A DNA stretch of 64,000 nt from contig CAZUXE010000001.1 in NCBI GenBank assembly GCA_964624585.1, positions 39,365-103,364 of the forward strand, given 5' to 3'. The stretch's first letter is position 1. Each line of letters starts with the position of its first letter. The translations under genes were made by a program, and so were the position numbers. This stretch comes from an uncultured bacterium (GTDB lineage Bacteria; Hydrothermota; Tepidihabitantia; B3-TA06). Under the pieces are notes generated by a model, which saw nothing but the letters and a program-made list of their open reading frames with translations, had not been told where the DNA came from and ran no database searches. Positions 15,670-63,400 of the stretch are shown piece by piece.

Positions 15670-17907
15670 TCAAAAGGCCACAGAAAATTTTAAGTTAAAA
15701 TAGCGAGCCGGAACTGGGGAAGGTATTTGGGACTGATAATATTTCCAGGCCGCCTTGTAAGCCTGCACCTCTTCGGCTGCTGTAATGTAGCCATCCTTAT
15801 TAATATCGCGGGCAGGATGGTAGTTCGCATCGCCTATTGCATAGCGGGTTGGAAAGTCTTTTTCTAAAGGTAGTGTAGGTTCAGACAGCTTGCCGAATAT
15901 CGGCTCTGTCCAATTAAATGGATTAATTAGCTCTGCTTTAATTTCAGCGCGGAGTTTTCCTAAAATAATTTCTTTCCCTGCTGCTAGTTCTGAATACAGC
16001 CACCACGGAGAATTATTGCCAACTTCCTCATCTGCAAAACCCGACATTAAAGCCAATCGGGGTTTAACAAACCATCCTTTCAAAAGAAACGGTAAGTTAT
16101 TGGGAGTCTGAAAGCTTGTTTCTAAAACAAACTTATGCTTTGCGTCCAAGGGCAGTTTCTGCATCTTTTTAATAAGTGTATCTTCTAAAACAATCCTTTC
16201 ATAATCTTTTCTGAATCCCTGACTTGTTCCCTTGGCTAAGGCGTAGGAATAAGAAACGCGTATTTTTCCCCAATTCAATACATTAAACTGAAACCATGGA
16301 AGCATACCCCACGCGAAAGCCTTGCCATTTGACAAAATGTCCAAAGAACCTGGGGCATTTGACGCAGTATCCTTAAGATTGGCGCTCAATTGCGTTAAAT
16401 TATATGAAAAGCGTATATATCCTGATAAACCCACGTCAAAGCTTTTCCCGAAACTCCTGCTTGCTTCAAACCAACTTCGCCACGCTTCTTCAGGTTCAGG
16501 ATACTTAGTCGGAATAACTAGTAAGGTATCGGCATTCGGAGAGCTTGTCTTGCCGTCATAGTAGTAGGCAAGCACAGGAGGGGCTGAGCTAAGTTCCGTT
16601 CCTGCATCAAAACGAAGTCCGTACAATAATGTCCCGACCTCTAGTCTAGGTTCAAGTCTTAACTTATAAGCTGATGCAGTATCGCTTGATTTTGCATTCT
16701 TACCCCCAAGCTCCATGTATAAAAGTCCCAAGCCTGTTTCAATCCAAAGGCTGTCGCTTTGCAACGAAAGGCTATCTGCAAAATAGAAATTACCCAAATG
16801 CGGAGTATATTGATAGTCCCAATCGTATTTCTTCCCATCACTGCGAGTAGAAGCTTTTGACAAAAGGTTGTACCCGGCATACAAGAATCTGGCCTTTAGG
16901 AGATGTCGTTCTTCTAGCTGTATAGATGTTGATATATTGGCTCTATCGGCAAGGGAGTTCCTTGTCAATAAATAAGGATTGTTCCCTGAGGAATAAAACA
17001 TACCGATTACGCCATAAGGATTAGCCCTTGAAAGTTCTGCAAATGGATTTTTGTAGGATTGTTCTTTGAATAATTTTAATATTGAGAACGGCTCCGGGGT
17101 TCTGCCGCCGGTTCGGAAATTAGAATTGTAGGAGGAAAGCGTTGCATCTATATTCAAAACATCTGTTGTGTAATTAAAATTAAACATGAATAATCCGGCC
17201 TCTGAAAATTCAATTGGGGTGGATGCGGGGTTAAATGCCCAGGCCGGTGAAAATTTATCGTGCTGACATTCAGAAAAAAGATATTGCGCCCGTACTCCTA
17301 TACGCTCTGAAGCCTTCAAATAGGCGGAAGCTGCAGCGCTCCATGCGGCTAGCCCACTATGATGAAGAGAAATATTGTAAGGGTAAGAATTTTTGTACTG
17401 CACAGCTTGAGCGTCAAGTGAGACCGCCAACTTTTTTCCTAATGGGACATTGAAGAATATTTCGGCTTCCCCCTGAAGGCTATCTTCAAAAAACAACTGA
17501 GGATTATATACTAAAAAACCGCCATGCCATCCTTGCTGTTGATTTTTGAGATTTCTGAATTCAAAATAAGGGTTAAGACTAAGCGCACCACGGTTAAGCG
17601 AAACGGATGGTATCAAATGGTACGGAAGCTTTATGAAACATTTTCCGGTTAGAGGATCATTCAAAGGAATTCCATCCAAGCTAAAAAACAGTTCATCTGT
17701 CCTACCACCAAAGAAACCTAGCCTAGCGCTTTTTACCCTCATTTGCGGAATAAACCATGCATTTCTTATTCGACTGAAGGGATTTACAGAAAGCAGTTCC
17801 CTACACCCACAGGAATATGTAAGTGTGTCTTTAGATATTCTGCCGTCCTTGGTCTCTTCTATCTGCGTAAATAGGGATAACCCCAGAAAGACTATTGAAA
17901 AAGACAT
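15670..17907 (-). CDS. Outer-membrane beta-barrel protein, possibly TonB-dependent-receptor-like
   Basis: Short signal peptide, a plug-like motif (SLDGIPLNDPLTGK) and many predicted beta strands. C-terminal aromatic residue (…FSVAF) typical of OM beta-barrels. No confident family assignment. Confidence 0.35.
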   Translation of the reverse strand: MSFSIVFLGLSLFTQIEETKDGRISKDTLTYSCGCRELLSVNPFSRIRNAWFIPQMRVKSARLGFFGGRTDELFFSLDGIPLNDPLTGKCFIKLPYHLIPSVSLNRGALSLNPYFEFRNLKNQQQGWHGGFLVYNPQLFFEDSLQGEAEIFFNVPLGKKLAVSLDAQAVQYKNSYPYNISLHHSGLAAWSAAASAYLKASERIGVRAQYLFSECQHDKFSPAWAFNPASTPIEFSEAGLFMFNFNYTTDVLNIDATLSSYNSNFRTGGRTPEPFSILKLFKEQSYKNPFAELSRANPYGVIGMFYSSGNNPYLLTRNSLADRANISTSIQLEERHLLKARFLYAGYNLLSKASTRSDGKKYDWDYQYTPHLGNFYFADSLSLQSDSLWIETGLGLLYMELGGKNAKSSDTASAYKLRLEPRLEVGTLLYGLRFDAGTELSSAPPVLAYYYDGKTSSPNADTLLVIPTKYPEPEEAWRSWFEASRSFGKSFDVGLSGYIRFSYNLTQLSANLKDTASNAPGSLDILSNGKAFAWGMLPWFQFNVLNWGKIRVSYSYALAKGTSQGFRKDYERIVLEDTLIKKMQKLPLDAKHKFVLETSFQTPNNLPFLLKGWFVKPRLALMSGFADEEVGNNSPWWLYSELAAGKEIILGKLRAEIKAELINPFNWTEPIFGKLSEPTLPLEKDFPTRYAIGDANYHPARDINKDGYITAAEEVQAYKAAWKYYQSQIPSPVPARYFNLKFSVAF

Positions 17908-18001: not shown

Positions 18002-18946
18002 TTAAACTAAAGAATTAATGCGTTCGGCTACCCGCCATGCAATAATCAGTTTTGCAATACCGATTTCGTCAACAATTTTATTTTCAGCCGGCAAAACCTT
18101 CGCCCCCGGCTTCCCTGCAATTTCAGCTATTCTTTTTTCAACCTCAGCCAAGGTAGGACGCGGTATCAGGCCGTTGATTTCTATTTTGGAAACAGCCTGC
18201 TTACCCCTTAAGCCCTTACGGTACTCAAAATAGAGTTCTTCACCCTCAGAACGGCACATCCGCGCAAGATTCAAAGGCAAATGAATTTCCGATAATTTCT
18301 CCTCCGTAATTTTTTGAGTTAATCTTATCCAATAAGGAGAACCACGTTGATATCGCTGTTCTGTTTTTTCTTTTTTTATCTGAACAATAATCTCCGCCCA
18401 TCGGCGCTGCGGAGCAATAAAACGGCGGTAATGCGGCTCACGCTCAGCAATAGAGCGCAAAACCGCCTTCTGTGAGTGTCCGCGTTCTTCAACATCTCGA
18501 CGAAGTTTCCATTCTCTCTTAACTTCTGGATCGGGATCTATGTATACTGTGAAATCAAGTAATTCCCGCATTTTTTTGCTGTGGAAAGGAAGCAAGCCTT
18601 CAAGAATAACTATTTTTTTAGGTTTGAACCTTACCGGCGGATCTAACTTACCTGTAGAATGATTATAAACAGGTTTCATTATCATCTGCCCTTGTTTGAG
18701 CGCCGTCGTGTGAAGAGCCAATAATTTCAAGTCATTTGCTTTTGGGTTGAGCGCTACTATACCTGTTTTCCTACGTTCCTGACGGTCAAGCTTATGGTAA
18801 TCATCAAGTGAAATTGCCGCAACATTAGCTTTGCCAAATAAGGTTCTTATGCCTGCGGCAAAGGTCGATTTACCTGAACCGCTGTCGCCTGCAACCCCTA
18901 TTAGAAAAACCTTGTTTGAGCCTTCTACCACTTCTTCTTTCCCCAT
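18002..18946 (-). CDS. prk: Phosphoribulokinase, class II (cyanobacterial/plant/archaeal type)
   Basis: P-loop VFLIGVAGDSGSGKSTF, then ISLDDYH, KPVYNHSTGKLDPP, VILEGLLPFH and ERGHS; I recall these as near-identical to the signature blocks of class-II PRKs. The start overlaps the rbcL stop by 22 nt. Confidence 0.85.
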   Translation of the reverse strand: MGKEEVVEGSNKVFLIGVAGDSGSGKSTFAAGIRTLFGKANVAAISLDDYHKLDRQERRKTGIVALNPKANDLKLLALHTTALKQGQMIMKPVYNHSTGKLDPPVRFKPKKIVILEGLLPFHSKKMRELLDFTVYIDPDPEVKREWKLRRDVEERGHSQKAVLRSIAEREPHYRRFIAPQRRWAEIIVQIKKEKTEQRYQRGSPYWIRLTQKITEEKLSEIHLPLNLARMCRSEGEELYFEYRKGLRGKQAVSKIEINGLIPRPTLAEVEKRIAEIAGKPGAKVLPAENKIVDEIGIAKLIIAWRVAERINSLV

Positions 18947-20190
18947 ATTTCATACGCTTTACCAACATCTTCATCTGCTGCTGCCAGAGATTCTATATCT
19001 TTCCCTTGAAGCACCGCATCAACCACTTTTCGCGAAGTTCTGGCTCCTGCACAGGTACCTGAAGGATGACCATGGATACCGCCACCCTGCATTATTGCCG
19101 CATCACGTCCAAAGTTGCCCATAATTGCTGGGATAAGGAAGGGATGAACGCCTCCTGAGGCAACTGAAAGAACTGGTTTTATTGAACCCCAATCCTGTCC
19201 CAGCCATACTCCACTAGCTTCCACTTTCTGTTTGTTCATCTCTTCATGCATTCTAAGAATCTCTTCTTTATTACCTTCCATTTTGCCAACAATAGTTCCA
19301 ATGTGTAACTGATCTACTCCGGCAAAACGGCAGAATTTTGAAAACGCAAGGGTACTCATACCGTGATCTGGAACACGAGTAAATGCCGCATACATTGCCC
19401 TATGGGCATGGATGGCTAATCCACCAGCATGTTTTCGCAACATTTGTACAGCAGCAAATCCTGCTGTAACAACGTCAATCATCACATAGCGAGAACCGGC
19501 CTTCTTCGCCATTTCCAACCTTTTAAGCATTTCATCGGCAGGCGCTGTAACGTTAGGCATATAACCTTTGGATTCACCTGTCTCCTGTTGCGCTTTTTCA
19601 GCGGCTTCAAGAGAAAGCTTGAGTCTTCGCTCAAAACGGTTGAATTCCTGATTGGTAAGATTCTCATCATCCTTGACAATATCGCAACCACCTAACATTG
19701 CCTCATAGAGTACCTCGGCGAATTGTTCAGATGAAAGTCCAACCTTTGGCTTCACTATTGTTCCAATTAAAGGTCTATCTTTAACTCCAAGCATTTCGCG
19801 TACCCCGTCCCTACCTAAGGCCGGGCCCGAAAAACTATCTACCAGAACTTTGGGAAGCTGAAAATCTTCCAGCCTTAGCCTTTCTACCGCTTTCATACCA
19901 TAGATATTACCTGCAATTGACGAGAGTATTTGAGGAATAGAGCCTTTTTCAAACAATTGAGATGGATAGGCTATCCATACATAGGGAGGCTCCATTTTAT
20001 AAGCATGGGGTTTTAAGGTTTCAGCGACCTTTGCTATCATTGTGGATACTTCTGTCCAAGTTCCAATAGACGATTCCCCAACCAATGCTTCTACTGTCTC
20101 CTCAAAACTTTTTCCCAAAGCCGGTTTAAGCTTAAAAACTGTCAAAAGGTCATTTTCCGGAGGCTTATAATCTAAATCCAAATATTCCAT
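18925..20190 (-). CDS. rbcL: Ribulose-1,5-bisphosphate carboxylase/oxygenase large subunit, short form-III-like (421 aa)
   Basis: All canonical active-site blocks are present: ESSIGTWT; GNIYGMK (Asn123); GTIVKPKVGLS (Lys175/177); DIVKDDENL (carbamylated Lys201, Asp203, Glu204); IHAHRAMYA (His294/Arg295); HIGTIVGKMEG (His327/Lys334); VASGGVHP (Ser379); GGGIHGHP (Gly403/404). No rbcS is adjacent. Confidence 0.9.
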   Translation of the reverse strand: MEYLDLDYKPPENDLLTVFKLKPALGKSFEETVEALVGESSIGTWTEVSTMIAKVAETLKPHAYKMEPPYVWIAYPSQLFEKGSIPQILSSIAGNIYGMKAVERLRLEDFQLPKVLVDSFSGPALGRDGVREMLGVKDRPLIGTIVKPKVGLSSEQFAEVLYEAMLGGCDIVKDDENLTNQEFNRFERRLKLSLEAAEKAQQETGESKGYMPNVTAPADEMLKRLEMAKKAGSRYVMIDVVTAGFAAVQMLRKHAGGLAIHAHRAMYAAFTRVPDHGMSTLAFSKFCRFAGVDQLHIGTIVGKMEGNKEEILRMHEEMNKQKVEASGVWLGQDWGSIKPVLSVASGGVHPFLIPAIMGNFGRDAAIMQGGGIHGHPSGTCAGARTSRKVVDAVLQGKDIESLAAADEDVGKAYEIWGKKKW

Positions 20191-20219
20191 AATTCACTCC
20201 TTTAATTATCTTTATCTAC

Positions 20220-20247
20220 AGTATAGAATTAATTCGGTGTTGGTCAA
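20220..20247 (-). promoter_or_regulatory. Sigma70-type promoter for the rbcL-prk operon
   Basis: Minus-strand -35 TTGACC (20247-20242), 16-nt spacer, -10 TATACT (20225-20220). RBS aaaggag lies 6 nt before the rbcL ATG. Confidence 0.55.
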
Positions 20248-20250
20248 ACT

Positions 20251-20286
20251 CTATAATAAAAAAGGGGAAAGCCTATGGCTTTCCCC
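20251..20286 (-). terminator. Rho-independent (bidirectional-looking) terminator for the C25 peptidase gene
   Basis: Hairpin ggggaaagcc-tat-ggctttcccc flanked by an A-run on + and a T-run on the minus strand (ttttttattatag). Confidence 0.7.
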
Positions 20287-20308
20287 TTGGGTTAAATTTT
20301 TGTATAAA

Positions 20309-22950: not shown

Positions 22951-23280
22951 ATGATTGAAATTGAATGCCCAACGTGCGAGTCTAAGATAATCATACAGAA
23001 AAAGCTTCATGTAGGCGATAGAATAGAATGCAAAGAATGTGGGGAGATACTGCAAATTTTGTCAACCAATCCCATAGAGGTTGATTATTGGGATTCTTCT
23101 GAAGGAGAAGATAGCGACTTATACGCCTATTACTTGTCCGATGACGAGTTATCTGATATCGGACTTAGTAAATTTACATCGAAATGCGATGAAGAGAATG
23201 AATCCTTTGAGCTACCTGACAGTAGTTCACTTTTCGGCGACTGTGACGACGAATCTGATACCGATGAAGATAATAATTAA
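22951..23280 (+). CDS. Small zinc-ribbon protein with a long acidic C-terminal tail (LysW-like architecture)
   Basis: CPTCE...CKECG four-Cys ribbon in the first 35 aa. The remaining ~70 aa are extremely acidic (…DSDLYAYYLSDDELSDIG…DCDDESDTDEDNN). Expressed from a perfect consensus promoter. Confidence 0.5.
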   Translation: MIEIECPTCESKIIIQKKLHVGDRIECKECGEILQILSTNPIEVDYWDSSEGEDSDLYAYYLSDDELSDIGLSKFTSKCDEENESFELPDSSSLFGDCDDESDTDEDNN

Positions 23281-35618: not shown

Positions 35619-36655
35619 TTTTGAACCTCAGTACCTGGATAGTAATAAGTCAAAATTTCCCTATAATCATATCCTGCATCAGCCATTCCTTTTGCACCCC
35701 ATTGGGAAAGTCCAACCCCATGCCCAAGCCCCCTGCCTTTGAAAACATAAACCTTACCCACACGTTCAACCTTAAACCATGAACTTTTTAGTGAGTTCCA
35801 TCCCAGCTTTTGACAAACAAGCATCCGAAAATTCCAACCGCCGAACACCCGTTTTTCCTGTCTGTATTTTACAGCAATCTCTTTGACTCTTCCATCAGGA
35901 TAGGTAGATAACACTTTTAAGTCGCTTATACCCTCAAAGCCCAGCACTTGGGCGATTTTGTGCGCAGGAATATTTCTTTCCCAACGGTAATGTGGAGATT
36001 TTTTGCAAAAGGAATCCTGAACTGAAATCAAGTAAGGTGCGCATTCATCTGGCCAAATGAATGCAGCGTTTGCAGTGCTTCCTCCTGAAGTAGAATGATA
36101 GAAAATTCTACAAGGTTTATTATGATAGGTTAAAATCATCCCTTCCGTCTCTTTTACAGCTTTCAGGCTTGCAGAGCTTACCGTTTGCCTACCGCGATAA
36201 GATTGACAATGTGTCAGATCGCAAACATCCCAAGCTTCTCTTTCGTGGCGCTTTCTCTTTTCATATATAAAGGTTCTTGCAAGCACAGCCTGGGCTTTCA
36301 ATGCCTCAATTCCAGCGTTCGGAAGCATTTCTGCGCCAACAACTGAAGCAAGGTAATTCGTCTTGTCAACAGAATTCAAGAGCAGTAATTCTCCATCGTG
36401 AACCCTTGCCTTAAGCCAACCATCGTAATTACGCGACTTCGCCTTCCATTCTACCGTGAAACCTTTTGTTTCTAAAGTATAGGTATCAAGAAAGGCTCCA
36501 TTCACAAGTAACTTGTTTTGCTTCACTTGCAAGGTATCTTCGCTCTCTTCTGCTCTAATAACAGCTTTTTTTAGATGATATGAGGAAAGGATATCTATCT
36601 TAATCAGACCCGATGCCGCAAAAATTGCAAGTAGCTGAAGAATAATGTTAGTCAC
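35612..36655 (-). CDS. SpoIID/LytB-domain protein (peptidoglycan lytic transglycosylase / amidase enhancer family)
   Basis: Conserved SpoIID block (QAVLARTFIYEKRKRHEREAWDVCDLTHCQSYRG). Confidence 0.75.
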   Translation of the reverse strand: MTNIILQLLAIFAASGLIKIDILSSYHLKKAVIRAEESEDTLQVKQNKLLVNGAFLDTYTLETKGFTVEWKAKSRNYDGWLKARVHDGELLLLNSVDKTNYLASVVGAEMLPNAGIEALKAQAVLARTFIYEKRKRHEREAWDVCDLTHCQSYRGRQTVSSASLKAVKETEGMILTYHNKPCRIFYHSTSGGSTANAAFIWPDECAPYLISVQDSFCKKSPHYRWERNIPAHKIAQVLGFEGISDLKVLSTYPDGRVKEIAVKYRQEKRVFGGWNFRMLVCQKLGWNSLKSSWFKVERVGKVYVFKGRGLGHGVGLSQWGAKGMADAGYDYREILTYYYPGTEVQKW

Positions 36656-37574
36656 CGTGTCTCCGATGGAAATAATCGGAAATTACCATTCCCGCAATCT
36701 TTGCCGCATCCTTGCCTTCGCCTCTTTCCAAAAAAACCACAACGGCAATTTGGGGTTCCTCGAAGGGTGCGAACCCTGCAAACCATCCGTAAGTTCGCCA
36801 TGAACCAAGTACGGTTGAAGAACCTGTTTTACCGGCTACATTTACTTCGGCTATGTCGGCGTTTTTGCCGGTACCTGAACGTACTGCATCCCTTAAGAAC
36901 AATCTGATGTCTGCAAGACAGCTTTTTTCAGAAAAACTTGCAAGAATTTGCTGACCGCCTGGCTCAAGGTGAGGTCTTAGAAATTCGCCACCTTTGGCTA
37001 CTCCTGAAATCATAGCCAACATAGCAACAGGCGTCAACTGTAAGGCTGAACCCTGACCTATTGCAAATGCTAGTTTGGCTGAATCGTTTGCAGGAATTTG
37101 GACAATACTAGCAAGTTCCGACGGTAGGTTAACACCAACTTTGTTATTCAACCCCAAAGAGAAGTATATATCCGCTAACTCTTGCGGCTTCAGTTTATAG
37201 GCAAGATTTTGAAAATAGAGATTGCATGATGCTAACAGAGCGCGATGGAAATCCACTTTTCCGTGACCACCGCGTAATGAACATTTTAATGTATCTCCTT
37301 TCAGAAACCTATCGCCTGTACCTATTTCAAATCCCTTGCATACAAAGTTTTGGGAAAAATCAACACCTGCCTTTGCTGCCGCCATACTAGTGAGTATTTT
37401 GGCAACTGAACCAGGAGGATATCGGTGCGCAAACAGTATATCGCTATCGGTTGCCACAATAAGTCTTCCATTTCTTAAATCCATAACAGCCACAGCGCCT
37501 TTATTAGCAACTAATTCCGCACAACGTTCGCTAAAGGTTACCCCGACAGCTATAAAGAGAAGTAATAGATTCAC
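36648..37574 (-). CDS. Monofunctional penicillin-binding transpeptidase-fold protein (class-D beta-lactamase / PBP-TP-like)
   Basis: The three active-site motifs of serine penicillin-recognising enzymes appear in order and at the right spacing: SVAK (SxxK), SCN (SxN), KTGSS (KTG). Only 308 aa; no glycosyltransferase domain. Confidence 0.6.
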   Translation of the reverse strand: MNLLLLFIAVGVTFSERCAELVANKGAVAVMDLRNGRLIVATDSDILFAHRYPPGSVAKILTSMAAAKAGVDFSQNFVCKGFEIGTGDRFLKGDTLKCSLRGGHGKVDFHRALLASCNLYFQNLAYKLKPQELADIYFSLGLNNKVGVNLPSELASIVQIPANDSAKLAFAIGQGSALQLTPVAMLAMISGVAKGGEFLRPHLEPGGQQILASFSEKSCLADIRLFLRDAVRSGTGKNADIAEVNVAGKTGSSTVLGSWRTYGWFAGFAPFEEPQIAVVVFLERGEGKDAAKIAGMVISDYFHRRHGD

Positions 37575-37577
37575 AAA

Positions 37578-40500
37578 TTATTTCTCAACCACTGTGATAA
37601 TATTTTCTGCCGAATGAGCGCGTTTGTCGGAGAAGTACATAAGCGAAGCTTCGGCAGGCATGGTATGGTAAACGCCAGGCAAATACGGTTCAAGCACATA
37701 GCTGAACTCACGATGTCCCCAAAGATAGCTTATGAAGAAAGCCGTGTGATCGTCATGAAGCTCTCTGCCGGAATACATATATCCCCAATCTTCATAATCA
37801 TAGTAGCCCCACCAGTAGCGTTCGTTGCGAATACTGTAACGGTCTCTGTTTTTTGCAACCTCGAAACCTGCCGGAAGCGGGTCTTTAATCATTACATACT
37901 CATAGTCATCGTCTGCATCAACATACAGCTTAACAAACAGTGGTTCGCCAACCTTGAGCGCTCCTTCTAAGGGCAGTTTATCATAGACCAACTTATTGTT
38001 TTCTACTTTAGGAACAAGACGATAGTACTCACGGGTTATCTTCAAAGCGGAGCCTGCACTTGGGATTTCCTCTTCCTTGGAATAATATGAGAGAATCAGG
38101 CTAAAGAACAAATTGCCGCTACCTTTTTTATGCACCTTTAGGATATTATTCGCAGTAGGTTTTATAGACCTTAAATTAATAACTAAAGGCCTGTTAAATT
38201 CTGAAAGCGTGTTTGCAGAAACATTGTAGTTTGCAATAGATTTTCCATTAAGGGTAAAGTCAAGCTTCATATTAGGATTCGTATCACCGGTCGTTTTCAA
38301 AAACTCGGCAAGAGCAAGAAGAGCTAAACCCGAATCTTTAGTTGATTTCCAACGGTTACCCCTTCTTTTCCTCAAGAGCCAGAATACAACCTTTGAAACA
38401 ACTTCATCTTTAGGAGAAATTGCCAAAAACGCACGTAGCGCAGTGGCTGTGGTTTCTATAGGGTCATCATACCAGTATTCAACATTACGTACCTGCCCAG
38501 CCCAATAAACCGTTTCCTCATCTGTAATAGCGTCTTTCTTCAAACGCTTAAGTATTAGCTTGGCTGAGGCGTCATCGCCTATTTCATGATAACTCAAGGC
38601 CATCAAAGCCTTGGCGTATGGATCAACTTTTTTCTTTCGTAGAATTTTTAAGTGCTTTTCCACAACCGCTTTATTGTCTCCAGGAGCCATTGATAACGCA
38701 TAAACCATGTAAGCACGTTCAGTTACGTTTATTGTCGTATCGCGAGTTTCTAAAAGACTAGCAAGCGCAGAGCTACCTCTTTTTAACACTTTAGGGTTGA
38801 TATCGTAGCCTAATTCCTGAGCATAGGTAAGGCCATGAACTACATAAGCGGTCATGATATTCATGGTTTTATCATTTTCCCACCAGCCCCAGCCGCCGTC
38901 TGAATGTTGGTAACCGTAAAGTTTTGCCAGTCCTTTTTCAATCATCTTGGGTAATTCTTTGGCTAAGGCAGGATTACCTTTTTTGGGGTCTGCTATTAAA
39001 TCTGCAACTATTAAATCGGGAAAGAAACTTGACATAGTTTGCTCAACGCATCCGTAAGGATAGGCTGCCAGATATGAAAGTCCTGAGAATAAGGCTGAGC
39101 TAATGGTAGGGGTAAGGGTTAGTTTAGCCTGAATTGAGCTTAATTGAATTTCTTTAGGTATGCTGAAGGAACGGGTAATTTTTTGCTCTGGCTTTGGCAT
39201 AAATCCTGAAAGAAGCAAATTGCGCATAATGCCATGCGGATTAGCCGGTATGGTAAGTTGCATAGCATCAGAAGCGTCAACGCCTATGACTTTAGCGGTC
39301 ATTTTAACCTTACCTGAGGTTTCACACTTAACAGGCCAATCTACCCTGAAAGCTCCTCCTGAAGCTATAGTAGCTGTGTATGAAGTCTTTTTTGAAAACA
39401 GCTTAGCGCCATCTACCAAGAAAGAAATCTTGACGTCCTGAGTGGAATGCGTGTAGTTGTGGACAACGGTTGGAATTATCAGCGAATCACGCTCCGTCAC
39501 AAAACGCGGGGGAATAATTCTTATCAATAAATCTTTTGTTACTAAAGACTTATAACGTACTTCGCCAACCTTGCTATCCTCGGTAATCGCTTTAGCTGTA
39601 GCCCGCCAGGTAGTCAGATTATCCGGCCAAATAAGTTCAAAATTGGCTTCTCCCTTGGCGTTGGTTCTCAAGATAGCGTCCCAATAGGCCATATCTTTGA
39701 ACTTTGTTCTTATCTTAGGCTCATCTTTACCTTTATATGCTGCAAGAACAACACTATCTTTCGTCGCTGCCTTCAATTTAGCGTAGTCTTGTTCGTAGCC
39801 GTAGAATGAAAAATAGATTGATGAAGAGGTTGAAACCTGATTATAGCGTTCACCATAGAAATAATCCTTAATTGGTGAAGCAAATTCTGAAGCCAGTGAA
39901 TAGATGGCCTCATCAACAAGCCCTACCGATATATCGGCTTTAACCGGTCTATTCTTCCAATCCTTAACGAAAACCTTGAATTTAGCCTTTTCTCCGGGTT
40001 CGTACTTTTCCTTATCAGAGCTAAGCTCAATCTTAAGTAACTTAGAAGTGTCGTTGACCACCATTTTTTCAGAATGGTTGAAGAAATCGCCCTCAAATAT
40101 TCCACTAACCGATAAGTATACGTTGGGGAAATATTCAGGACGTACCTTAAACTTCAGGCGGGCAGTATTTCCCTTCATTTCAGTAATTCTAATATCGTAG
40201 AGGTCATCAGCTTCAATTGAGCTTATAACACTCGCATTCTCAAATGGATAGATAATCAGAGCTTCAGCCCAATCACCTACTTTGTAGCTTTCTTTATCGA
40301 AAACAATCTGAGTTCTGTCAACCTTCCATGTATAATAGCCGTTTCTTTCAGAAACCCAGAACCAGCGTTTATCAACATTAGTTCGTCCATTTTTATCGCT
40401 TGAGGTAGCTTTTACGTAGTAATATCCGCCTTTTTTGGGCTTGAATTTATAGATATAGACACCATTATTAGATATCCTGACGGTTCTTCTGGCAACCACT

Positions 40501-42215
40501 TCATCATCTTTATCCCAGTAATCCCTGTACACAAGCAAATCAACCTTACCGGCAACAGGTTTATTGAGGATATCGTGGGTTTTTATCTCTATTTCCGCCT
40601 CTTCACCTAAATTTACCACGTAAGATAAAGGGGTCAGGTTAACTAAAACTTCAGAAGATGCAACAAGGCTTCTAGCTTCGCCCGATTCACTGCGCCTTGA
40701 GGCATCACGAACTTGAGCTTCAAATATGTAACTGAAGTTTTTATCATTCAGAGGTAGACGATAGGAAAAAACAAGTTTCCCGTTTTCATCGGTACTAGCT
40801 TCAAGTTCATCAACATATGAAGTCCCGTACCAATAGTAGCGATGATGCTGCCTGCGATAAACCTTTAGTTTAACGTCAGCTTTAGCCACAGGAGCGCCAA
40901 AGAAGTAATCGGCGGATACGGTAATTTTTGCAATATCGCCCTGAATATAGGCCTTTTTGGCAACCTTTACTTCCACTTTAAATTCAGGCTTTCGGTACTC
41001 TTCTACCTTGAAATAAGTTGAATGACAACTACTATCAACATATGCTGTTAGGGTATACTTTCCCAGACGTGATGAAGTTGGTACTATTAATGAGTCATTA
41101 AATGCCCCCCAATCATCACTTTTCAATGTCTGACGGTATATTTCCTTTCCTTCAGGATCGGTTATTACAACTTTGGCTTCATCAACCGATGGCTTGCGAT
41201 ATTGCCCCCGCTTAAATCGCCTTATAATTCCTTTGAAGTAAACGGTTTGGTCAGGTCTGTAAATAGGACGTTCAGTATGTAAGTAGACCTTTATTTCGGT
41301 CTGTTTTTTAGGGTCAGGTATAAAACCTTCATCATCTTCATAATAATCATCATAGTAATAATCTTCATTGTCGTAATAGTAATACTTATCAAGCAGGGCA
41401 AAATTGTCTCCATCCTGAAGCAATACCTTTATATGCGATGTATCAACAGCGGTATGAAAAAGCCCCTTGGCATTTGTTCTGCCTGAAGCAAGCGTCTTTG
41501 TACCTGCAAGAACCGTTACCTTTGCACCTTTTCGAGGTTTCCCGTCTGCAGAGTTGAGTGCAAAGATGTAGACTCCTTTAGGAGTCTGCTTAGTTATTAG
41601 TGAAATATTTGAAACAACCACCGGTGTATACGCAACTTTGGTACCGTAATAAGCTTCCACCAAATATACCCCCGGCTCATCAATCCCCAAGTCTACTGTT
41701 TCATAGTGATAGCTGTTATTATAGCTGTAGTAATCGTCATTAGACTTCTTTTTCTTCACAAACTTAAAAGTCCATTCTTTAAGCAAGGGATAGCCTTTAA
41801 GTTTAGGCACACTTCCTTGAACTACGGCTTTGCGGATTTCTTTATCCGTTTTCTCCAAATTAGGTAAGCCTATGTAATCTCGTATACTTATCCTGCTTTC
41901 CTCGCTCAGCATTTCTCTAGCCAAATATCGAGAATTCCGCTTAGCGCGTTCACTTATTCCTTGTATCATATGGAAGAGATTAACCGCATCCTTATTTTGT
42001 CTAACTTTTGGTGAGTGCAAGTTCTTTTGTGATGCGAAAAATTTAGTTGGATTTTCAATTTTATATAACCTGAAATAAACCTTGTCAATACCATAGGCTT
42101 CCAGATTTATTTCAGTTTTCTCTTCAGGAGAATACAGATGAGATGCAGAAAGGTATATATCGGAATATGCAAATAACCCGCTGGTTAAAATGGATAAAAG
42201 CGCAAAAACTTTCAT
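37578..42215 (-). CDS. Bacterial alpha-2-macroglobulin (thioester-containing protease-trapping protein)
   Basis: 1545 aa with a signal peptide. Canonical thioester motif AYPYGCVEQTMSSF (CxEQ). Large multi-domain MG/TED organisation. Confidence 0.9.
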   Translation of the reverse strand: MKVFALLSILTSGLFAYSDIYLSASHLYSPEEKTEINLEAYGIDKVYFRLYKIENPTKFFASQKNLHSPKVRQNKDAVNLFHMIQGISERAKRNSRYLAREMLSEESRISIRDYIGLPNLEKTDKEIRKAVVQGSVPKLKGYPLLKEWTFKFVKKKKSNDDYYSYNNSYHYETVDLGIDEPGVYLVEAYYGTKVAYTPVVVSNISLITKQTPKGVYIFALNSADGKPRKGAKVTVLAGTKTLASGRTNAKGLFHTAVDTSHIKVLLQDGDNFALLDKYYYYDNEDYYYDDYYEDDEGFIPDPKKQTEIKVYLHTERPIYRPDQTVYFKGIIRRFKRGQYRKPSVDEAKVVITDPEGKEIYRQTLKSDDWGAFNDSLIVPTSSRLGKYTLTAYVDSSCHSTYFKVEEYRKPEFKVEVKVAKKAYIQGDIAKITVSADYFFGAPVAKADVKLKVYRRQHHRYYWYGTSYVDELEASTDENGKLVFSYRLPLNDKNFSYIFEAQVRDASRRSESGEARSLVASSEVLVNLTPLSYVVNLGEEAEIEIKTHDILNKPVAGKVDLLVYRDYWDKDDEVVARRTVRISNNGVYIYKFKPKKGGYYYVKATSSDKNGRTNVDKRWFWVSERNGYYTWKVDRTQIVFDKESYKVGDWAEALIIYPFENASVISSIEADDLYDIRITEMKGNTARLKFKVRPEYFPNVYLSVSGIFEGDFFNHSEKMVVNDTSKLLKIELSSDKEKYEPGEKAKFKVFVKDWKNRPVKADISVGLVDEAIYSLASEFASPIKDYFYGERYNQVSTSSSIYFSFYGYEQDYAKLKAATKDSVVLAAYKGKDEPKIRTKFKDMAYWDAILRTNAKGEANFELIWPDNLTTWRATAKAITEDSKVGEVRYKSLVTKDLLIRIIPPRFVTERDSLIIPTVVHNYTHSTQDVKISFLVDGAKLFSKKTSYTATIASGGAFRVDWPVKCETSGKVKMTAKVIGVDASDAMQLTIPANPHGIMRNLLLSGFMPKPEQKITRSFSIPKEIQLSSIQAKLTLTPTISSALFSGLSYLAAYPYGCVEQTMSSFFPDLIVADLIADPKKGNPALAKELPKMIEKGLAKLYGYQHSDGGWGWWENDKTMNIMTAYVVHGLTYAQELGYDINPKVLKRGSSALASLLETRDTTINVTERAYMVYALSMAPGDNKAVVEKHLKILRKKKVDPYAKALMALSYHEIGDDASAKLILKRLKKDAITDEETVYWAGQVRNVEYWYDDPIETTATALRAFLAISPKDEVVSKVVFWLLRKRRGNRWKSTKDSGLALLALAEFLKTTGDTNPNMKLDFTLNGKSIANYNVSANTLSEFNRPLVINLRSIKPTANNILKVHKKGSGNLFFSLILSYYSKEEEIPSAGSALKITREYYRLVPKVENNKLVYDKLPLEGALKVGEPLFVKLYVDADDDYEYVMIKDPLPAGFEVAKNRDRYSIRNERYWWGYYDYEDWGYMYSGRELHDDHTAFFISYLWGHREFSYVLEPYLPGVYHTMPAEASLMYFSDKRAHSAENIITVVEK

Positions 42216-42241
42216 AATGAACCCTCCTTTAGGTTCAGAAA

Positions 42242-42958
42242 CTATATTAAAATCTTAAATCTGTAGAATCCGGCAAAGGCAGGATTAGTCTCAACCGGAC
42301 GCCAAATTTCATTATCTAAAGCAAGTAAGGTTTCAAACTTAATTAAACGCATTTCCCCTTCCTTAACCTCTCCGTTTGCTTCATCAATACCCGGGCCTGT
42401 GTGATAAAGAAGGTAGGGTCTAGACCTAAGTTCTATATATATCATCACATGCGCTTCTTTGCCTTTGGGGGTAAAAAAAAGCAAATCGCCGGACTTTATT
42501 TTCTCATCCAATTTTCTGCTTAAAAAAACTGTATGATGCTCCATTAAATGACGCACGTCTGCAAAGTTATTTAATTTTCCCCTTTTTCTGTCTCCTGTTT
42601 GATAAGAGCCATCAGCTACCCTAAAGATATCTGTACCTATATATGGTATCTCTGGATAATGAAAGGCTTCTATTTCCGGAATTGTGCGCTCTACTAGATT
42701 ACCAAAACTTTTCCGCCAGTTAGCGTTATGCGCCTTAAGCGCTTCCCTGTAAGAAAAAAGAACCAAATTAGTACAATCTGCAACTTCATCTGTTGGATTT
42801 AGGTAGCGTGAAAGGGCAATTGTGGTAAACCAGCGACGAAAATTACGACGATCGGCATTTGTTTTCAACTCAGCAAGATCAGGAAAACCGTCTGAATCTG
42901 TATCAAGCGGTTGATGTGGGTTCAGGGCTAAAAATAGCGCTATAAGTGCAGTGTGCAT
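42242..42958 (-). CDS. Secreted hypothetical protein co-transcribed upstream of the A2M gene (possibly DUF1175/YfaT-like)
   Basis: Signal peptide. Calcium-binding-like DTDSDGFPD motif. 26-nt gap to the A2M start. The family assignment rests on memory of an A2M-neighbour family and is not verified. Confidence 0.35.
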   Translation of the reverse strand: MHTALIALFLALNPHQPLDTDSDGFPDLAELKTNADRRNFRRWFTTIALSRYLNPTDEVADCTNLVLFSYREALKAHNANWRKSFGNLVERTIPEIEAFHYPEIPYIGTDIFRVADGSYQTGDRKRGKLNNFADVRHLMEHHTVFLSRKLDEKIKSGDLLFFTPKGKEAHVMIYIELRSRPYLLYHTGPGIDEANGEVKEGEMRLIKFETLLALDNEIWRPVETNPAFAGFYRFKILI

Positions 42959-60400: not shown

Positions 60401-63400
60401 CTAATTAGATTTAACAATGGCAAACTTGCCTGTCGCTTGTTTACCATCTTTGGTTTTAACCTGCCATATATACAAGCCGTTGGAACAATCAAGGCCTTCA
60501 CTGGTCAACAGATTCCAGTCTTCGGATCCTGCTGAACCCAGAAGACCTGTTCCATCATGCTCTATAGTTCTTATAAGCAATCCGGCGGAATTGAATATGC
60601 GTATAGTACATGTCTGAGGCAAGTTCTGGAAGATAACGTGTCTGGCGTATTTATTTTCGTCCCAGGGAGCGGTAATGTAGTACGGATTAGGAACCACACG
60701 AACCGAATCAAGGGTGCGTACATCCTGCGCTGTATCGTATTCCACAGGAATCGTTGTAAAACGACATCTATCGCCAGCTACGGTAGCCTTAAGGGTCTTA
60801 ATCAAGAACTGGTCACCCTGTTGCGGCAATATAGCGTTAGGATTCTGTTTATACACAAAGGAATCTATAAGGAACGTATCCCCTGAAGCTGTCCTGAAAG
60901 TATCAATAAGAAGAAGCGTATCTTTGAAAGTTATTTCAAACTCTTTGCTTCCGGGTTGAATTTTATCCTTGTATATGAAGAGTTTATCGCCGTGATCAAG
61001 TACATCGTCCTTGTTCAATCCTTTAGCGCTCTTACCGTGGGACCAAAGCAGTGCAAATTTACCGCTTCCGCCACCGTAACGGGAAACAGTAATTGGCATA
61101 GTCTTGCCCTTATCATCTTTCCCGGGAGCCACAGTTATCAAGTAGTCATGTGTATAGGGAACAGCGCCGCCAGCGGTTTGAGGGAAACCTACATTCCAGT
61201 TTAGGGTAGTGGTTGACTTGAGCCATCCTGTATGTAGAGTGTCTATTAATGTATCCAAATCAAGGGTATCAACCGATACACCAGCTATCTGAATCTTAAC
61301 ACCATCTACAACAGGGCCGCTTTCAACTCCGGAATGCAGAAGGAATGTATCAACATTAGATTTACTAGCAGGATTTGTAATATCCTTAATATAAGCATAC
61401 TTTACCGCATTATTCGTATCAGCAAAGAAACCTACTTCGTATTCGTCTCCTGTAACCTGATCCGGCGAAACAACACTAACATTTACAAAAGCATTTCCTC
61501 TACTGGATACCCACTTAAGATTGCTGACATCTGATTTCTGCCATCCTAGAGGATTAGAGCGCGGAACAGCCCAATAAGTTTTTCCTGTTTTACCGCCTTC
61601 AAGAGAACTTACATTTTCCAAAGGCTGAGAACGAGAGTACGAAGTTACTGAATAATAGTAAACTTTGCCATTGTCGACCTTTTCATCAACATAATAATGT
61701 TTAAGACCGGTCTGACCACTAAGTTGTTCTGCTGCATAAGTCTTGACAGTAAATTTAGCACCTGAAATAGGAGTAACGATATCTCCCTTTTCAGGATGCT
61801 TGTCTTCCAGAATCGTAATTTGAGCACCGTCAATGAATATAACGTCACCAGGTTTGTAAGGATAGTAATCCTGACCATCTGTACCACCTGATGTTGGGGT
61901 AGAATTAGTTACAGCTGTAACGTGAGCAATAGCATCAACAAGCTTAGTAATTGTACCTGAAGAAACATTACCGCTGCTTCCGCCAGCTATCGCCTTAATT
62001 GCAACATCTGCAGTTCCGTTCCCAACAACAGAAGCTTCCGCAGTGGTCTCAAAAGTAACTGGCGATTTGTTTGTAATGGTAGAATCCGTAGATACCTTTG
62101 TACCCTTAGGAATAACGGTTGTATCGGTAGAATCGGCAGTTACAGTAAAAGTAACCGTTCCGGTAGCATTAACTGAACCTGGAATTTTAACAACTTTGCC
62201 GTCTATCGTATCAAGAACACAGTAGCCGCCTTCTTTAAGAGCCTCTTCGTTATAGCTTAATTGTTTCTGATCACCAATGTTATATATAAGGTAGTAAAGA
62301 TTACCGGAAACAGGATCTTTTTTGAAAGTAAGTGTATAAGTGTTGTTGCCAAACCCTATTTTTGCAAGGTCAGCACTCGGATGGAATCCAAGAAACTTTC
62401 CTACCGCTGTGGAAGGCCCAACTGTATGGTCAACAATTACGGTATCCGGATTCTTTGAATCAGCCAAATCATAATCTGCAAGCAAGTCCCAAGTTTCTGC
62501 AAGACCTGAAAGACTTCTGTAAACACGGTAACCTTCAAAAGTAGGCTGATGACTCATAGGATCAATGTAACCTTCAGGACTGCTACTCCAATTAAGATAG
62601 ACTTTACCATTACCTGGAATTACGTTTAATTGAGGATTCGGTGGAGGAGCGTATCCGAAATAGCCGTTGTTGAACTGAATTTTTGCAGCTTTCGCTTTCT
62701 CCTGAAGTTCATCTAGCGAATAGGCCACTATAACCGCGATGGTCACGTTAATCTCTTCTCCAGCCTTAAGCACATCATAGGGACCACAGTTCAGAAGCAT
62801 ACGCACATCATTAGGGTTCTGCCAGGTGTTAAATTGAGTGGAAGCCATGTAGACATACTTCAAGCTATCATGAGCATCTAAATCAATATCAGAACCATTC
62901 TGCCATGTTTCAAAACCAGTCAAGCCTATATCGCCTGGAGTATCAAGAAGAACCGCGCCAATGTAACCTGCTGGTGTTACCCAGCCTGGTTCAGCGCCAT
63001 CGGAATCATAGGTATAGCCCATGTTCAATTCCTTATCGAAACCAATAAGGTCATCCCAGGCGGCAGGATCCCCTGGACTGGTTCCGCCAGCTGCCTGTCC
63101 TATGTCATTATCCATAAAGAAGGAGACATATATATCTTCAAGATCGAACTCATTCATATTCTTAATCTTATAGTTTATGAATATGTATGAATCGTTGTAC
63201 TCGTAGTTCCAGGCATAGGTGCGCTGCTCTATCCTTAAGCCTTGTCCCCAAACGTCATATACTCCACCGCCTGAATTACGTACCCAAATTGTAGTAGCGT
63301 CTTTTGCAGGAATCCAGTCACCGGCACGGGCATAGGAATCCTGCATGGAGATTATATCACCATTTGCAGGAGAAACCTCTGGCATATGTATTTTTCTGCG

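What the first reader, a model, noticed from the sequence alone, without database searches (positions are those of the whole stretch)
18002..20247. Self-contained rbcL-prk operon: short form-III-like RuBisCO plus class-II phosphoribulokinase, no rbcS, in a T9SS-bearing (FCB-like) genome
The 421-aa RuBisCO large subunit retains every catalytic residue (KPK, KDDE, HR, GKxEG, SGG, GGG blocks), so it is a real carboxylase and not a form-IV RuBisCO-like protein. It is about 50 aa shorter than form I or form II and has no small subunit. The translationally overlapping PRK is unmistakably class II. Unlike cyanobacterial PRK, which as I recall has a redox-sensitive Cys in the P-loop, this one has Ser there (DSGSGKST), so it is probably not thioredoxin-gated. 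The operon has its own TTGACC-16-TATACT promoter and sits between a TonB-receptor-like OMP and a gingipain-like protease, far from any other Calvin-cycle gene. A PRK plus form-III pairing is what is described for the archaeal reductive hexulose-phosphate pathway, and differs from the AMP-salvage context (AMP phosphorylase plus R15P isomerase) of most bacterial form-III-like RuBisCOs. In a probable heterotroph this could act as a CO2-fixing redox shunt, and may have been acquired horizontally.
Basis: partly seen in the sequence, partly recalled or inferred. Interest (0 to 1): 0.85.

Follow-up and report, generated by a model that had tools for sequence, protein, structure and literature searches.

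The report
RuBisCO–phosphoribulokinase gene pair, WOR-3 bacterium
This is a real two-gene operon for a CO2-fixing RuBisCO without a small subunit plus the kinase that makes its substrate, in an uncultivated WOR-3-type bacterium; the same pairing was published for WOR-3 in 2025, so this is one more example and its physiological role is still unproven.

Summary
On the minus strand, rbcL (18925-20190, 421 aa) and prk (18002-18946) overlap and form a compact unit with a terminator, a promoter-like site and a ribosome-binding site upstream. RbcL passes NCBI's type III RuBisCO cutoff and keeps the catalytic residues. One phosphate-site His is Tyr, and that Tyr tracks PRK-linked RuBiscos. No small subunit or other Calvin-cycle gene lies in the 64 kb. 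The PRK has one cysteine and Ser at both positions where Synechococcus PRK has Cys. Its affinity is archaeal-type rather than strictly class II.

Composition is native, and synteny with WOR-3-labelled genomes argues against recent transfer. The overlapping rbcL-prk pair is conserved down to about 53% RbcL identity, always without other Calvin-cycle genes. More distant Tyr-bearing relatives sit in full Calvin-cycle operons.

It is not new. Zeng et al. 2025 (PMC12542636) reported RuBisCO plus prk in WOR-3 genus B3-TA06, and a 2026 survey (PMC13454268) places WOR-3 RuBiscos at the base of form I. This 42% GC genome is another lineage. Most likely function: ribulose-5-phosphate + ATP + CO2 gives two 3-phosphoglycerate, as a shunt fed by the pentose phosphate pathway. 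Full autotrophy is the main rival. Interest is about 0.3.

The parts
20262..20288 (-). Intrinsic-terminator-like hairpin (12-bp stem, 7 G-C pairs, T-run) ending the upstream C25 peptidase gene and insulating the cassette
   Evidence: sequence read
20220..20247 (-). Sigma-70-like promoter candidate, TTGACC-16-TATACT (10 of 12 matches)
   Evidence: The motif count in the region equals the shuffle expectation, so support comes from its position only.
20197..20203 (-). Shine-Dalgarno-like AAAGGAG, 6 nt before the rbcL ATG
   Evidence: sequence read
18925..20190 (-). rbcL: 421-aa RuBisCO large subunit with no small subunit. Type III by NCBIfam profile; at the base of form I in the published tree. 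Tyr267 sits at the H298-equivalent position.
18002..18946 (-). prk: phosphoribulokinase with archaeal-type affinity, P-loop GDSGSGKST and a single Cys. The longest ORF starts at ATG 18946; the conserved start is probably GTG 18931 (309 aa). Either start overlaps the rbcL stop, which implies translational coupling.

Best explanation
This is a native, vertically inherited, translationally coupled rbcL-prk operon of a WOR-3-lineage (T9SS-bearing) bacterium. PRK phosphorylates ribulose-5-phosphate to ribulose-1,5-bisphosphate. A RuBisCO without a small subunit then carboxylates it to two 3-phosphoglycerate. The PRK lacks the cysteine pair of oxygenic-phototroph PRKs, so it is not thiol/redox-gated.

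Shown: gene identities, intact active sites, operon anatomy, and conservation of the pair.

Inferred: the pair draws ribulose-5-phosphate from the housekeeping non-oxidative pentose phosphate pathway. It would then work as a two-step CO2-incorporating bypass (a PRK-RuBisCO shunt) that routes sugar carbon to 3-PGA without the NADH-producing GAPDH step, in an anaerobic heterotroph or mixotroph. On this reading it is not the core of a closed autotrophic Calvin cycle.

My confidence is about 0.9 for the enzymology and about 0.5 for shunt versus cycle.
For: Enzyme identity:
- Profile scores are above the curated cutoffs.
- Catalytic residues are conserved.
- PRK motifs (Walker A, DDYH, YNH, EGL, RGH) are present.
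- PDB matches are strong: E 3e-116 to form III RuBisCO 6hun and 6.5e-57 over the full length to archaeal PRK 5b3f.

Operon: terminator, promoter-like site, RBS and overlapping stop/start. The overlap is conserved in all ten cassette loci examined.

Native origin: composition z-scores are within +/-0.7. The locus is syntenic with L003 and with WOR-3-labelled L039.

Shunt reading:
- The cassette is always bare. No CBB-enzyme homologue lies in the window or in about 116 kb around ten cassette loci.
- More distant Tyr-bearing relatives sit inside full TAL-rbcL-prk-TKT-FBPase-RPE-GAPDH/PGK/RpiB/FBA operons.
- In Zeng et al.'s Table S2, all five RuBisCO/PRK-positive WOR-3 genomes are flagged gluconeogenesis = 0 and glycolysis/gluconeogenesis = 0. 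Non-oxidative PPP = 1 in three of them, the exceptions being the two least complete genomes.
- In a relative (L005/L006) the cassette ends a same-strand PTS-HPr-EI-PGI-NTP transferase run.
- The window encodes secreted peptidases with T9SS tails, as expected of a heterotroph.
Against: - Only 64 kb of the genome was available, so FBPase, PPi-PFK, aldolase, TKT/TAL, hydrogenases and similar genes could lie elsewhere.
- Zeng et al. interpret the same genes as a complete CBB cycle and note widespread NiFe hydrogenases.
- MAG-based absence calls are unreliable.
- Obligate autotrophs can have dispersed CBB genes.
- No expression or activity data exist for any WOR-3 enzyme.
- The effect of the Tyr substitution on catalysis is untested in this lineage.
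Confidence: 0.5

Rival explanations
1. The pair is the key step of a complete, dispersed Calvin-Benson-Bassham cycle (probably the transaldolase variant) that supports H2-dependent autotrophy or mixotrophy, as Zeng et al. 2025 proposed for WOR-3 genus B3-TA06.
For: - Published interpretation.
- PRK is otherwise considered specific to the CBB cycle.
- The RbcL shares the Tyr signature and tree neighbourhood with Ammonifex and Thermodesulfobium enzymes, which a 2026 survey describes as chemolithoautotroph RuBiscos with a modified CBB cycle.
- TKT, TAL, RPE and RpiB are reported in most WOR-3 genomes.
Against: - The five CBB-positive genomes are flagged gluconeogenesis = 0 in the authors' own table.
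- FBPase was annotated in only 15 of 181 genomes, and subgroup 1 is said to lack glycolysis/gluconeogenesis.
- No CBB genes are linked to the cassette in ten loci, unlike the L097 and L098 operons.
- The neighbourhood suggests a proteolytic, heterotrophic lifestyle.
Confidence: 0.3
2. The pair operates an archaeal-style reductive hexulose-phosphate (RHP) pathway, with Hps/Phi regenerating Ru5P from F6P and releasing formaldehyde.
For: The PRK is closest to archaeal-type PRKs, and its P-loop is identical to that of M. hungatei PRK.
Against: - The RuBisCO is not form III-a. It groups with IIIb-like and basal form I sequences.
- In M. hungatei the genes are unlinked.
- No Hps/Phi was seen in the window.
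- No report of Hps/Phi in WOR-3 was found.
Confidence: 0.05
3. The RuBisCO serves nucleotide (AMP) salvage through the pentose bisphosphate pathway, as in Thermococcus and CPR/DPANN organisms, and PRK is incidental.
For: The NCBIfam type III call. The nearest sequences outside the clade include many archaeal IIIb enzymes.
Against: - prk is translationally coupled to rbcL in every clade member.
- None of the 77 archaeal loci has a PRK, so the two contexts are mutually exclusive in this sample.
- Zeng et al. report no AMP phosphorylase or R15P isomerase in these WOR-3 genomes.
Confidence: 0.03
4. The cassette is a recently acquired horizontal island of archaeal origin.
For: RbcL and PRK both have archaeal proteins as their nearest relatives outside the clade. 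The cassette sits in different neighbourhoods in L004, L005 and L093-L096.
Against: - GC, GC3 and codon usage are typical of the window.
- The chromosomal position is the same in the window, L003, L039 and L007, with housekeeping-like divergence.
- No mobile-element genes flank it.
- There is a long gap (>=72% identity within the clade, <=59% outside) to any potential donor.
Confidence: 0.05

Closest known systems
RuBisCO + prk of WOR-3 genus B3-TA06 (Zeng et al. 2025, mSystems, PMC12542636)
   Same: Same gene pair and same protein clade. My locus L004 comes from GCA_016934635.1, one of their five CBB-positive genomes; its RbcL is 75% and its PRK 72% identical to the window's, with the same overlap. 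There is no small subunit and no AMP-salvage enzymes.
   Different: The window has 42% GC, against 49-53% for the five published genomes. Its neighbourhood also differs from L004 but matches L003, L039 and L007. It is therefore another lineage. The paper does not describe the overlap, the PRK type or the Tyr signature in the parts I read.
'Form III' / clade I-beta RuBisCO of Thermodesulfobium, Ammonifex and Desulfothermobacter, with the transaldolase-variant CBB cycle (Frolov et al. 2019, cited, paper not held; clade named in PMC13454268)
   Same: These are bacterial, lack a small subunit, are about 420-430 aa long and about 50-52% identical. They share the HAHRAMY Tyr, have an adjacent prk, and show a similarly small gap between the type III and general RuBisCO profile scores.
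   Different: Their PRK is a different lineage: 27% identical over the full length and 38% over the N-domain, and not overlapping. Related uncultured members sit in full CBB operons, whereas the WOR-3 cassette is bare.
M. hungatei PRK + form III-a RuBisCO, RHP pathway (Kono et al. 2017, PMC5241800; PDB 5b3f)
   Same: The PRK aligns over its full length, has the identical P-loop GVAGDSGSGKSTF, has no Cys at the two Synechococcus Cys positions, and is 47% identical over the N-domain.
   Different: The RuBisCO there is form III-a, the two genes are unlinked (Mhun0794 and Mhun2315), and the pathway needs Hps/Phi.
Archaeal form III-b RuBisCO in AMP salvage (T. kodakarensis 1geh, P. horikoshii 2cwx, H. 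butylicus 6hun)
   Same: Best PDB scores (342-392 bits), similar length, no small subunit, and above the TIGR03326 cutoff.
   Different: The hosts are archaeal and no PRK is nearby (0 of 77 loci). They have His, not Tyr, at the H298-equivalent position. Their gap between the type III and general RuBisCO profile scores is larger, at +15 to +42 bits against +6.
Deep form I relatives (I', I'', I-alpha; reconstructed ancestral form I 7qsx/8qmv; 6ura)
   Same: PDB scores are nearly as high as for form III (384 bits to ancestral form I, 338 to 6ura). [quoted passage not shown] Bacterial form I-alpha genes are also adjacent to PRK.
   Different: The window protein lacks the N-terminal extension, insertions and C-terminal tail seen in the three canonical form I references. 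Form I-alpha genes sit within CBB operons. My tree does not resolve the relationship, with under 20% bootstrap support.

Membership tests
Bona fide RuBisCO (forms I-III), as opposed to form IV RuBisCO-like proteins | Carbamylatable Lys with the KDDE metal ligands, the KPK motif, H-R, loop-6 Lys, and the SGG and GGG phosphate sites | tested here: met
   K173-D-D175-E176, K147-P-K149, H263-R264, H296, K303, S345-G-G347 and G369-G371 are all aligned and invariant against form I and III sequences. RLP models score 174-220 bits against cutoffs of 409-700.
Form III RuBisCO | Score above the curated NCBIfam TIGR03326 equivalog cutoff | tested here: met
   523.0 bits against a cutoff of 497.45, but only 6 bits above the general large-subunit model NF003252 (517 bits). 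Archaeal IIIb sequences are 15-42 bits above it.
Form III RuBisCO | No small subunit; short (about 420-445 aa) large subunit | tested here: met
   421 aa; no rbcS by tblastn in the window or in ten cassette loci.
Form III RuBisCO | Archaeal-type functional context (AMP phosphorylase and R15P isomerase; no PRK) | tested here: not met
   prk overlaps rbcL. None of the 77 archaeal relatives' loci has a PRK. AMP-salvage enzymes are reported absent from WOR-3 RuBisCO genomes. Not checked genome-wide for this organism.
Form I RuBisCO (including I', I'' and I-alpha) | Small subunit gene (canonical form I) | tested here: not met
Form I RuBisCO (including I', I'' and I-alpha) | The N-terminal extension, internal insertions and C-terminal extension seen in the form I references | tested here: not met
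   Absent in alignment A2 against the Cupriavidus and Nitrobacter form I enzymes.
Form I RuBisCO (including I', I'' and I-alpha) | Phylogenetic placement on the form I stem | tested here: inconclusive
   In my NJ tree, form I emerges from a grade containing the WOR-3 supergroup and the Ammonifex group, but with under 20% bootstrap support and no I', I'' or I-alpha references. PMC13454268 says 'deep base of form I'; PMC12542636 says form III.
PRK-linked bacterial 'form III / I-beta-like' RuBiscos | Adjacent prk and Tyr at the H298-equivalent position (HAHRAMY) | tested here: met
   Tyr267. All 9 PRK-adjacent loci have Tyr, and all 76 His-bearing loci lack a PRK. The prediction was confirmed for P0040 and P0077. 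The exceptions are L010 (Tyr, no PRK) and P0016/P0019 (His, PRK-linked).
PRK-linked bacterial 'form III / I-beta-like' RuBiscos | Embedded in a CBB operon (TAL, TKT, FBPase, RPE, GAPDH and others) | tested here: not met
   No such genes in the window or in ten cassette loci, in contrast to L097 and L098.
Phosphoribulokinase (as opposed to uridine kinase and other PRK/UK-family kinases) | Score above the curated PRK model cutoff, and the PRK-specific motifs | tested here: met
   NF005655 scores 303 bits against a cutoff of 236. Uridine kinase models score 118-128 bits, below their cutoffs of 180-220. Walker A, DDYH, YNH, EGL and RGH are present.
Class II (oxygenic-phototroph) PRK | Regulatory N-terminal Cys pair (P-loop Cys plus a second Cys) and a plant-type C-terminal domain | tested here: not met
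   Ser24 and Ser46 sit at the two Synechococcus Cys positions, and the protein has a single Cys, C231. Cyanobacterial PRKs align only over residues 11-191 or 11-212.
Class I (proteobacterial) PRK | Match to the class I model | tested here: not met
   NF011997 scores 42.6 bits against a cutoff of 362.
Archaeal-type PRK (M. hungatei clade) | Full-length homology and clade membership | tested here: inconclusive
   Full-length alignment to 5b3f with an identical P-loop. The best hits outside the clade are archaeal. The point-estimate sister group is archaeal-type, but bootstrap support is weak and the cassette PRKs form their own lineage.
Complete Calvin-Benson-Bassham cycle | Regeneration enzymes present in the same genome (FBPase/SBPase or TAL, aldolase, TKT, RPE, RPI, PGK, GAPDH) | not testable with these tools
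   Only 64 kb of this genome is available, and none of these enzymes is in it. Published tables for relatives are contradictory: CBB = 1 with gluconeogenesis = 0.
Reductive hexulose-phosphate pathway | Hps and Phi, plus form III-a RuBisCO | not tested
   No Hps/Phi domain appeared in the Pfam survey of the window, and the rest of the genome was not available. Form III-a references were not in my tree; the nearest named archaeal relatives are III-b-type.

The most novel reading that the evidence does not exclude
The bare, translationally coupled rbcL-prk pair is a free-standing, ancient two-enzyme CO2-incorporating bypass of lower glycolysis in anaerobic, T9SS-bearing (FCB-type) heterotrophs. 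On this reading it is the ancestral module from which PRK-linked CBB operons (the Tyr-bearing I-beta-like clade) and ultimately form I cycles were assembled by accreting regeneration genes. WOR-3-type bacteria would then preserve a pre-Calvin-cycle stage of RuBisCO-PRK cooperation.
Probability: 0.12. Interest if true: 0.7.

Novelty: new member of a known kind. Interest (0 to 1): 0.3.

Why it matters
If the shunt reading is right, many uncultivated anaerobic heterotrophs re-fix CO2 while fermenting sugars. That would affect carbon budgets and how 'RuBisCO-positive' MAGs are scored: RuBisCO plus PRK alone would not mean autotrophy. These enzymes lack a small subunit, are PRK-coupled and sit near the split between form III and form I. 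They are therefore useful material for reconstructing how RuBisCO was recruited into the Calvin cycle. The Tyr-for-His change at a phosphate-binding position is a simple marker that could be tested by mutagenesis. None of this is unique to this window, and the system has already been flagged in the literature.

Tried and rejected
1. Placing RbcL myself. I built an NJ tree with 200 bootstraps on 60 sequences, using annotated form I and RLP references taken from plasmids. The WOR-3 clade (100%) and its sister group (82%) are solid. The key node, IIIb versus the form I stem, has under 20% support. I had no form II, II/III, III-a, III-c, I', I'' or I-alpha sequences and no ML software, so the form question stays open.

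2. Testing whether the PRK is the sister of cyanobacterial class II PRK, which would have made both genes 'pre-form-I'. That relationship appeared in 23% of bootstraps with a small set and 2% with a broad set, so I rejected it as unsupported.

3. Looking for signs of recent horizontal transfer in GC, GC3 and codon usage. None were found.

4. Recovering per-gene CBB presence for the B3-TA06 genomes from Zeng Table S4. The stored file is truncated to 44 genome columns, so I used the Table S2 pathway flags instead.

5. Frolov et al. 2019 (PMC6744853) is not held. I cite it only through other papers.

6. Identifying the 745-aa neighbour. Pfam, NCBIfam and PDB gave nothing meaningful at E <= 10.

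7. Cluster look-up for a source name of the exact protein. None was given.

8. My first PRK cysteine check used the wrong residue index (position 23 instead of 24). I corrected it from the alignments.


Full report
**1. What is in the sequence**

Two ORFs lie on the minus strand at the reported coordinates. rbcL spans 18925-20190 (421 aa) and prk spans 18002-18946 (314 aa from ATG). They overlap by 22 nt.

RbcL carries both Pfam RuBisCO domains (E 5e-39 and 7e-86). It passes the NCBIfam type III equivalog cutoff (523 bits against 497). It fails the form II model and every RuBisCO-like-protein model by wide margins.

PRK passes the NCBIfam phosphoribulokinase model (303 bits against 236). It fails the uridine kinase and class I PRK models.

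The best solved-structure matches are H. butylicus form III RuBisCO 6hun (E 3e-116), followed by reconstructed ancestral form I enzymes and other form III-b structures. For PRK the best matches are cyanobacterial enzymes, over the N-terminal domain only, and the archaeal M. hungatei PRK 5b3f, over the full length.

**2. Operon anatomy (minus strand, 5' to 3')**

- The upstream C25 peptidase gene ends at 20309 and is followed by a 12-bp G+C-rich hairpin with a T-run (20288-20262).
- Next come TTGACC-16-TATACT (20247-20220), AAAGGAG (20203-20197) and the rbcL ATG at 20190.
- Promoter-like motifs are no more frequent here than in shuffled sequence (6 found, 5.5 expected). The site is therefore plausible from its position and is not statistically supported.
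- prk can start at ATG 18946 or at GTG 18931. The GTG lies within GTGGTAG, overlaps the rbcL stop by 7 nt and follows a purine-rich stretch.
- A start at this 7-nt offset is present in all five close relatives. Two independent gene callers also chose the 309-aa form. I take GTG 18931 as the likely start.
- No terminator was found after prk. The next gene (745 aa) has its own promoter-like site at 17940-17913.

**3. Active sites**

In an alignment with three annotated form I enzymes, Ammonifex, Thermodesulfobium and archaeal sequences, all the classical catalytic positions are conserved.

There is one exception. Tyr267 (HAHRAMY) replaces the His found in form I and archaeal III-b. This is spinach H298, part of the distal phosphate site; the numbering and the role come from my own knowledge.

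The protein lacks the N-terminal extension, three internal insertions, a 12-residue insertion near the C-terminus, and the C-terminal tail of the form I references. It is 52-65 aa shorter than they are.

No small-subunit homologue exists in the window or in ten related loci.

The PRK has Ser at both positions where Synechococcus PRK has Cys, and only one Cys overall. A disulfide switch is therefore impossible. The biochemically characterised M. hungatei PRK has the same P-loop.

**4. Organism and inheritance**

The window is ordinary chromosome. It carries SMC, FtsY, RecA, RecX, AlaRS, ScpB and GlmS, several T9SS-tailed secreted proteins, and no mobile-element genes near the cassette.

The exact RbcL occurs in public assemblies but without a name. 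Relatives at 72-80% identity are labelled 'candidate division WOR-3' or 'Candidatus Stahlbacteria'.

Locus L039 (WOR-3-labelled) and L003 share the window's gene order. That order runs from GlmS through a GlmM-like gene, a Zn-ribbon gene, the C25 peptidase, rbcL, prk and the 745-aa gene, and in L003 on to FtsY and SMC. RbcL is 72-78% identical, GlmS 74%, and in L003 RecA 82% and AlaRS 76%.

The cassette's GC, GC3 and codon usage lie within +/-0.7 SD of the window's 42 genes.

Taken together, this indicates vertical inheritance within this lineage and gives no evidence of recent horizontal acquisition.

**5. The cassette as a conserved unit**

An overlapping rbcL-prk pair occurs in every member of the clade that I could inspect, and in a wider group down to about 53% RbcL identity: P0014, P0015, P0016, P0019 and P0024. 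These sit in several unrelated neighbourhoods.

Among 80 loci from species-representative genomes, only the two close WOR-3/Stahlbacteria relatives and Ammonifex have a PRK beside the RuBisCO. None of the 77 archaeal loci does.

No transaldolase, transketolase, FBPase, RPE, GAPDH, PGK or RpiB homologue lies in the window or in about 116 kb around ten cassette loci.

**6. The Tyr signature**

At the H298-equivalent column, Tyr occurs in 10 of 86 loci: all nine PRK-adjacent loci plus one Iainarchaeum. His occurs in the other 76, none of which has a PRK.

I used this as a prediction. Two further Tyr-bearing homologues, P0077 and P0040, both proved to be PRK-linked. They lie inside full transaldolase-type CBB operons: TAL-rbcL-prk-TKT-FBPase-RPE-GAPDH, and TAL-rbcL-prk-TKT-GAPDH-PGK-RpiB-FBA.

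The exceptions are P0016 and P0019, which are PRK-linked but keep His. These counts are not phylogenetically independent.

**7. Classification**

The profile-score gap between the type III model and the general large-subunit model is small for the window (+6 bits). It is equally small for Ammonifex and Thermodesulfobium (+5 bits) and larger for archaeal III-b (+15 to +42 bits).

My bootstrapped NJ tree recovers the WOR-3 clade at 100% and its sister group, P0024 + (P0014, P0015), at 82%. It places them with the Ammonifex group in a grade from which form I emerges, but with under 20% support.

Published trees disagree. Zeng et al. place WOR-3 RuBisCO with archaeal form III. [quoted passage not shown]

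I therefore file it as type III by profile and architecture, with its phylogenetic position (III-b versus the form I stem) unresolved.

For PRK, an exhaustive search of 1.84 billion cluster representatives returns one representative of the cassette lineage at 430 bits, and the next hit is at 252 bits. Outside the clade, the nearest full-length relatives are archaeal. N-domain identity is about 50% to Synechococcus, 47% to M. hungatei and 38% to Ammonifex. Trees weakly favour an archaeal-type sister group. 'Class II' is thus too specific.

**8. Prior knowledge**

Zeng et al. 2025 (PMC12542636) reported rbcL and prk in five genomes of WOR-3 genus B3-TA06. They noted the absence of AMP phosphorylase and R15P isomerase and proposed a bacterial-type Calvin cycle. 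One of those genomes, GCA_016934635.1, is my locus L004.

All five have 49-53% GC, and the window has 42%. The window therefore represents another lineage carrying the same system.

Their own Table S2 flags all five as lacking gluconeogenesis and glycolysis/gluconeogenesis, while the non-oxidative PPP is present in three. The text states that FBPase was annotated in only 15 of 181 genomes. The 'complete CBB cycle' claim is therefore not secure.

**9. Mechanism**

The enzymology is well supported: Ru5P + ATP gives RuBP, and RuBP + CO2 gives two 3-PGA.

The physiological role is inferred. I favour a PRK-RuBisCO shunt fed by the non-oxidative PPP. The supporting points are:

- The cassette is always bare.
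- Relatives' genomes appear to lack gluconeogenic steps.
- One relative places the cassette at the end of a PTS-HPr-EI-PGI-NTP transferase run.
- The neighbourhood looks heterotrophic.

Such a shunt is known from plant embryos and from engineered microbes (my own knowledge). It lowers NADH output per carbon and recaptures CO2.

Full autotrophy remains a serious rival, because only 64 kb of the genome was visible and MAG absences are weak evidence.

**10. Verdict**

The system is a new member of a known, recently published kind, and the interest is modest.

Noticed in passing
window 19390-19392 (codon for Tyr267 of RbcL); also L001-L007, L009, L039, L097, L098: Tyr replaces the His of the HxHRAMH motif (spinach H298, numbering from memory) in PRK-linked RuBiscos. 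Tyr is found in all 9 PRK-adjacent loci, and all 76 His-bearing loci lack a PRK. Two predicted cases (P0040, P0077) were confirmed. The exceptions are L010 (Tyr, no PRK) and P0016/P0019 (His, PRK-linked).
   Followed up: yes
L005 4242-12183 and L006 (GCA_964417925.1; RbcL 56% identical): rbcL-prk is the last pair in a tightly packed same-strand run: PTS EIIB-EIIC-EIID, HPr, enzyme I, a SIS/bact-PGI-type isomerase, an NTP transferase, then rbcL-prk. This links the cassette to sugar uptake in that lineage.
   Followed up: partly
L097 985-8519 and L098 5335-13284: Uncultured relatives (about 52-53% RbcL identity) carry complete transaldolase-type CBB operons around rbcL-prk, with split transketolase and, in L097, an FBPase_3-family gene. 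These are a useful contrast to the bare WOR-3 cassette.
   Followed up: partly
window 18931 vs 18946: The longest-ORF start of prk (ATG 18946) is probably not the real one. A GTG/TTG start overlapping the rbcL stop by 7 nt is present in 5 of 5 close relatives.
   Followed up: yes
window 15670-17907 (-): This 745-aa protein has no meaningful Pfam, NCBIfam or PDB match at E <= 10. It has a hydrophobic N-terminus and a C-terminal ...KFSVAF ending in Phe, as outer-membrane barrels often do (my reading). It is conserved downstream of prk in L003 and L039 at 35-37% identity. The family is unknown.
   Followed up: partly
window 22951-23280 (+): A 109-aa protein with an N-terminal LysW-like zinc ribbon and a very acidic C-terminal tail. 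It is conserved in synteny in L003 and L039 (41-49% identity).
   Followed up: no
window 60401-63997 (-): A 1198-aa protein with a Baseplate_J domain, running to the edge of the window. It may belong to a phage-tail-like or contractile injection system.
   Followed up: no
window 36648-42958 (-): A same-strand cluster of DUF1175/NlpC-P60, a 1545-aa bacterial alpha-2-macroglobulin, a transpeptidase-domain protein and a SpoIID-domain protein. It looks like a periplasmic protease-defence and cell-wall module.
   Followed up: no
Zeng et al. 2025, supplementary Table S2, rows 127 and 129-132: The five genomes scored 'CBB cycle = 1' are all scored gluconeogenesis = 0 and glycolysis/gluconeogenesis = 0. 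The published 'complete CBB' call seems to rest on rbcL plus prk.
   Followed up: partly
L009 7259 onward (Ammonifex thiophilus): The PRK next to Ammonifex RuBisCO is only 27% identical to the window PRK, although the RuBiscos are 52% identical. The RuBisCO-PRK partnership therefore involves different PRK lineages in the two groups.
   Followed up: partly
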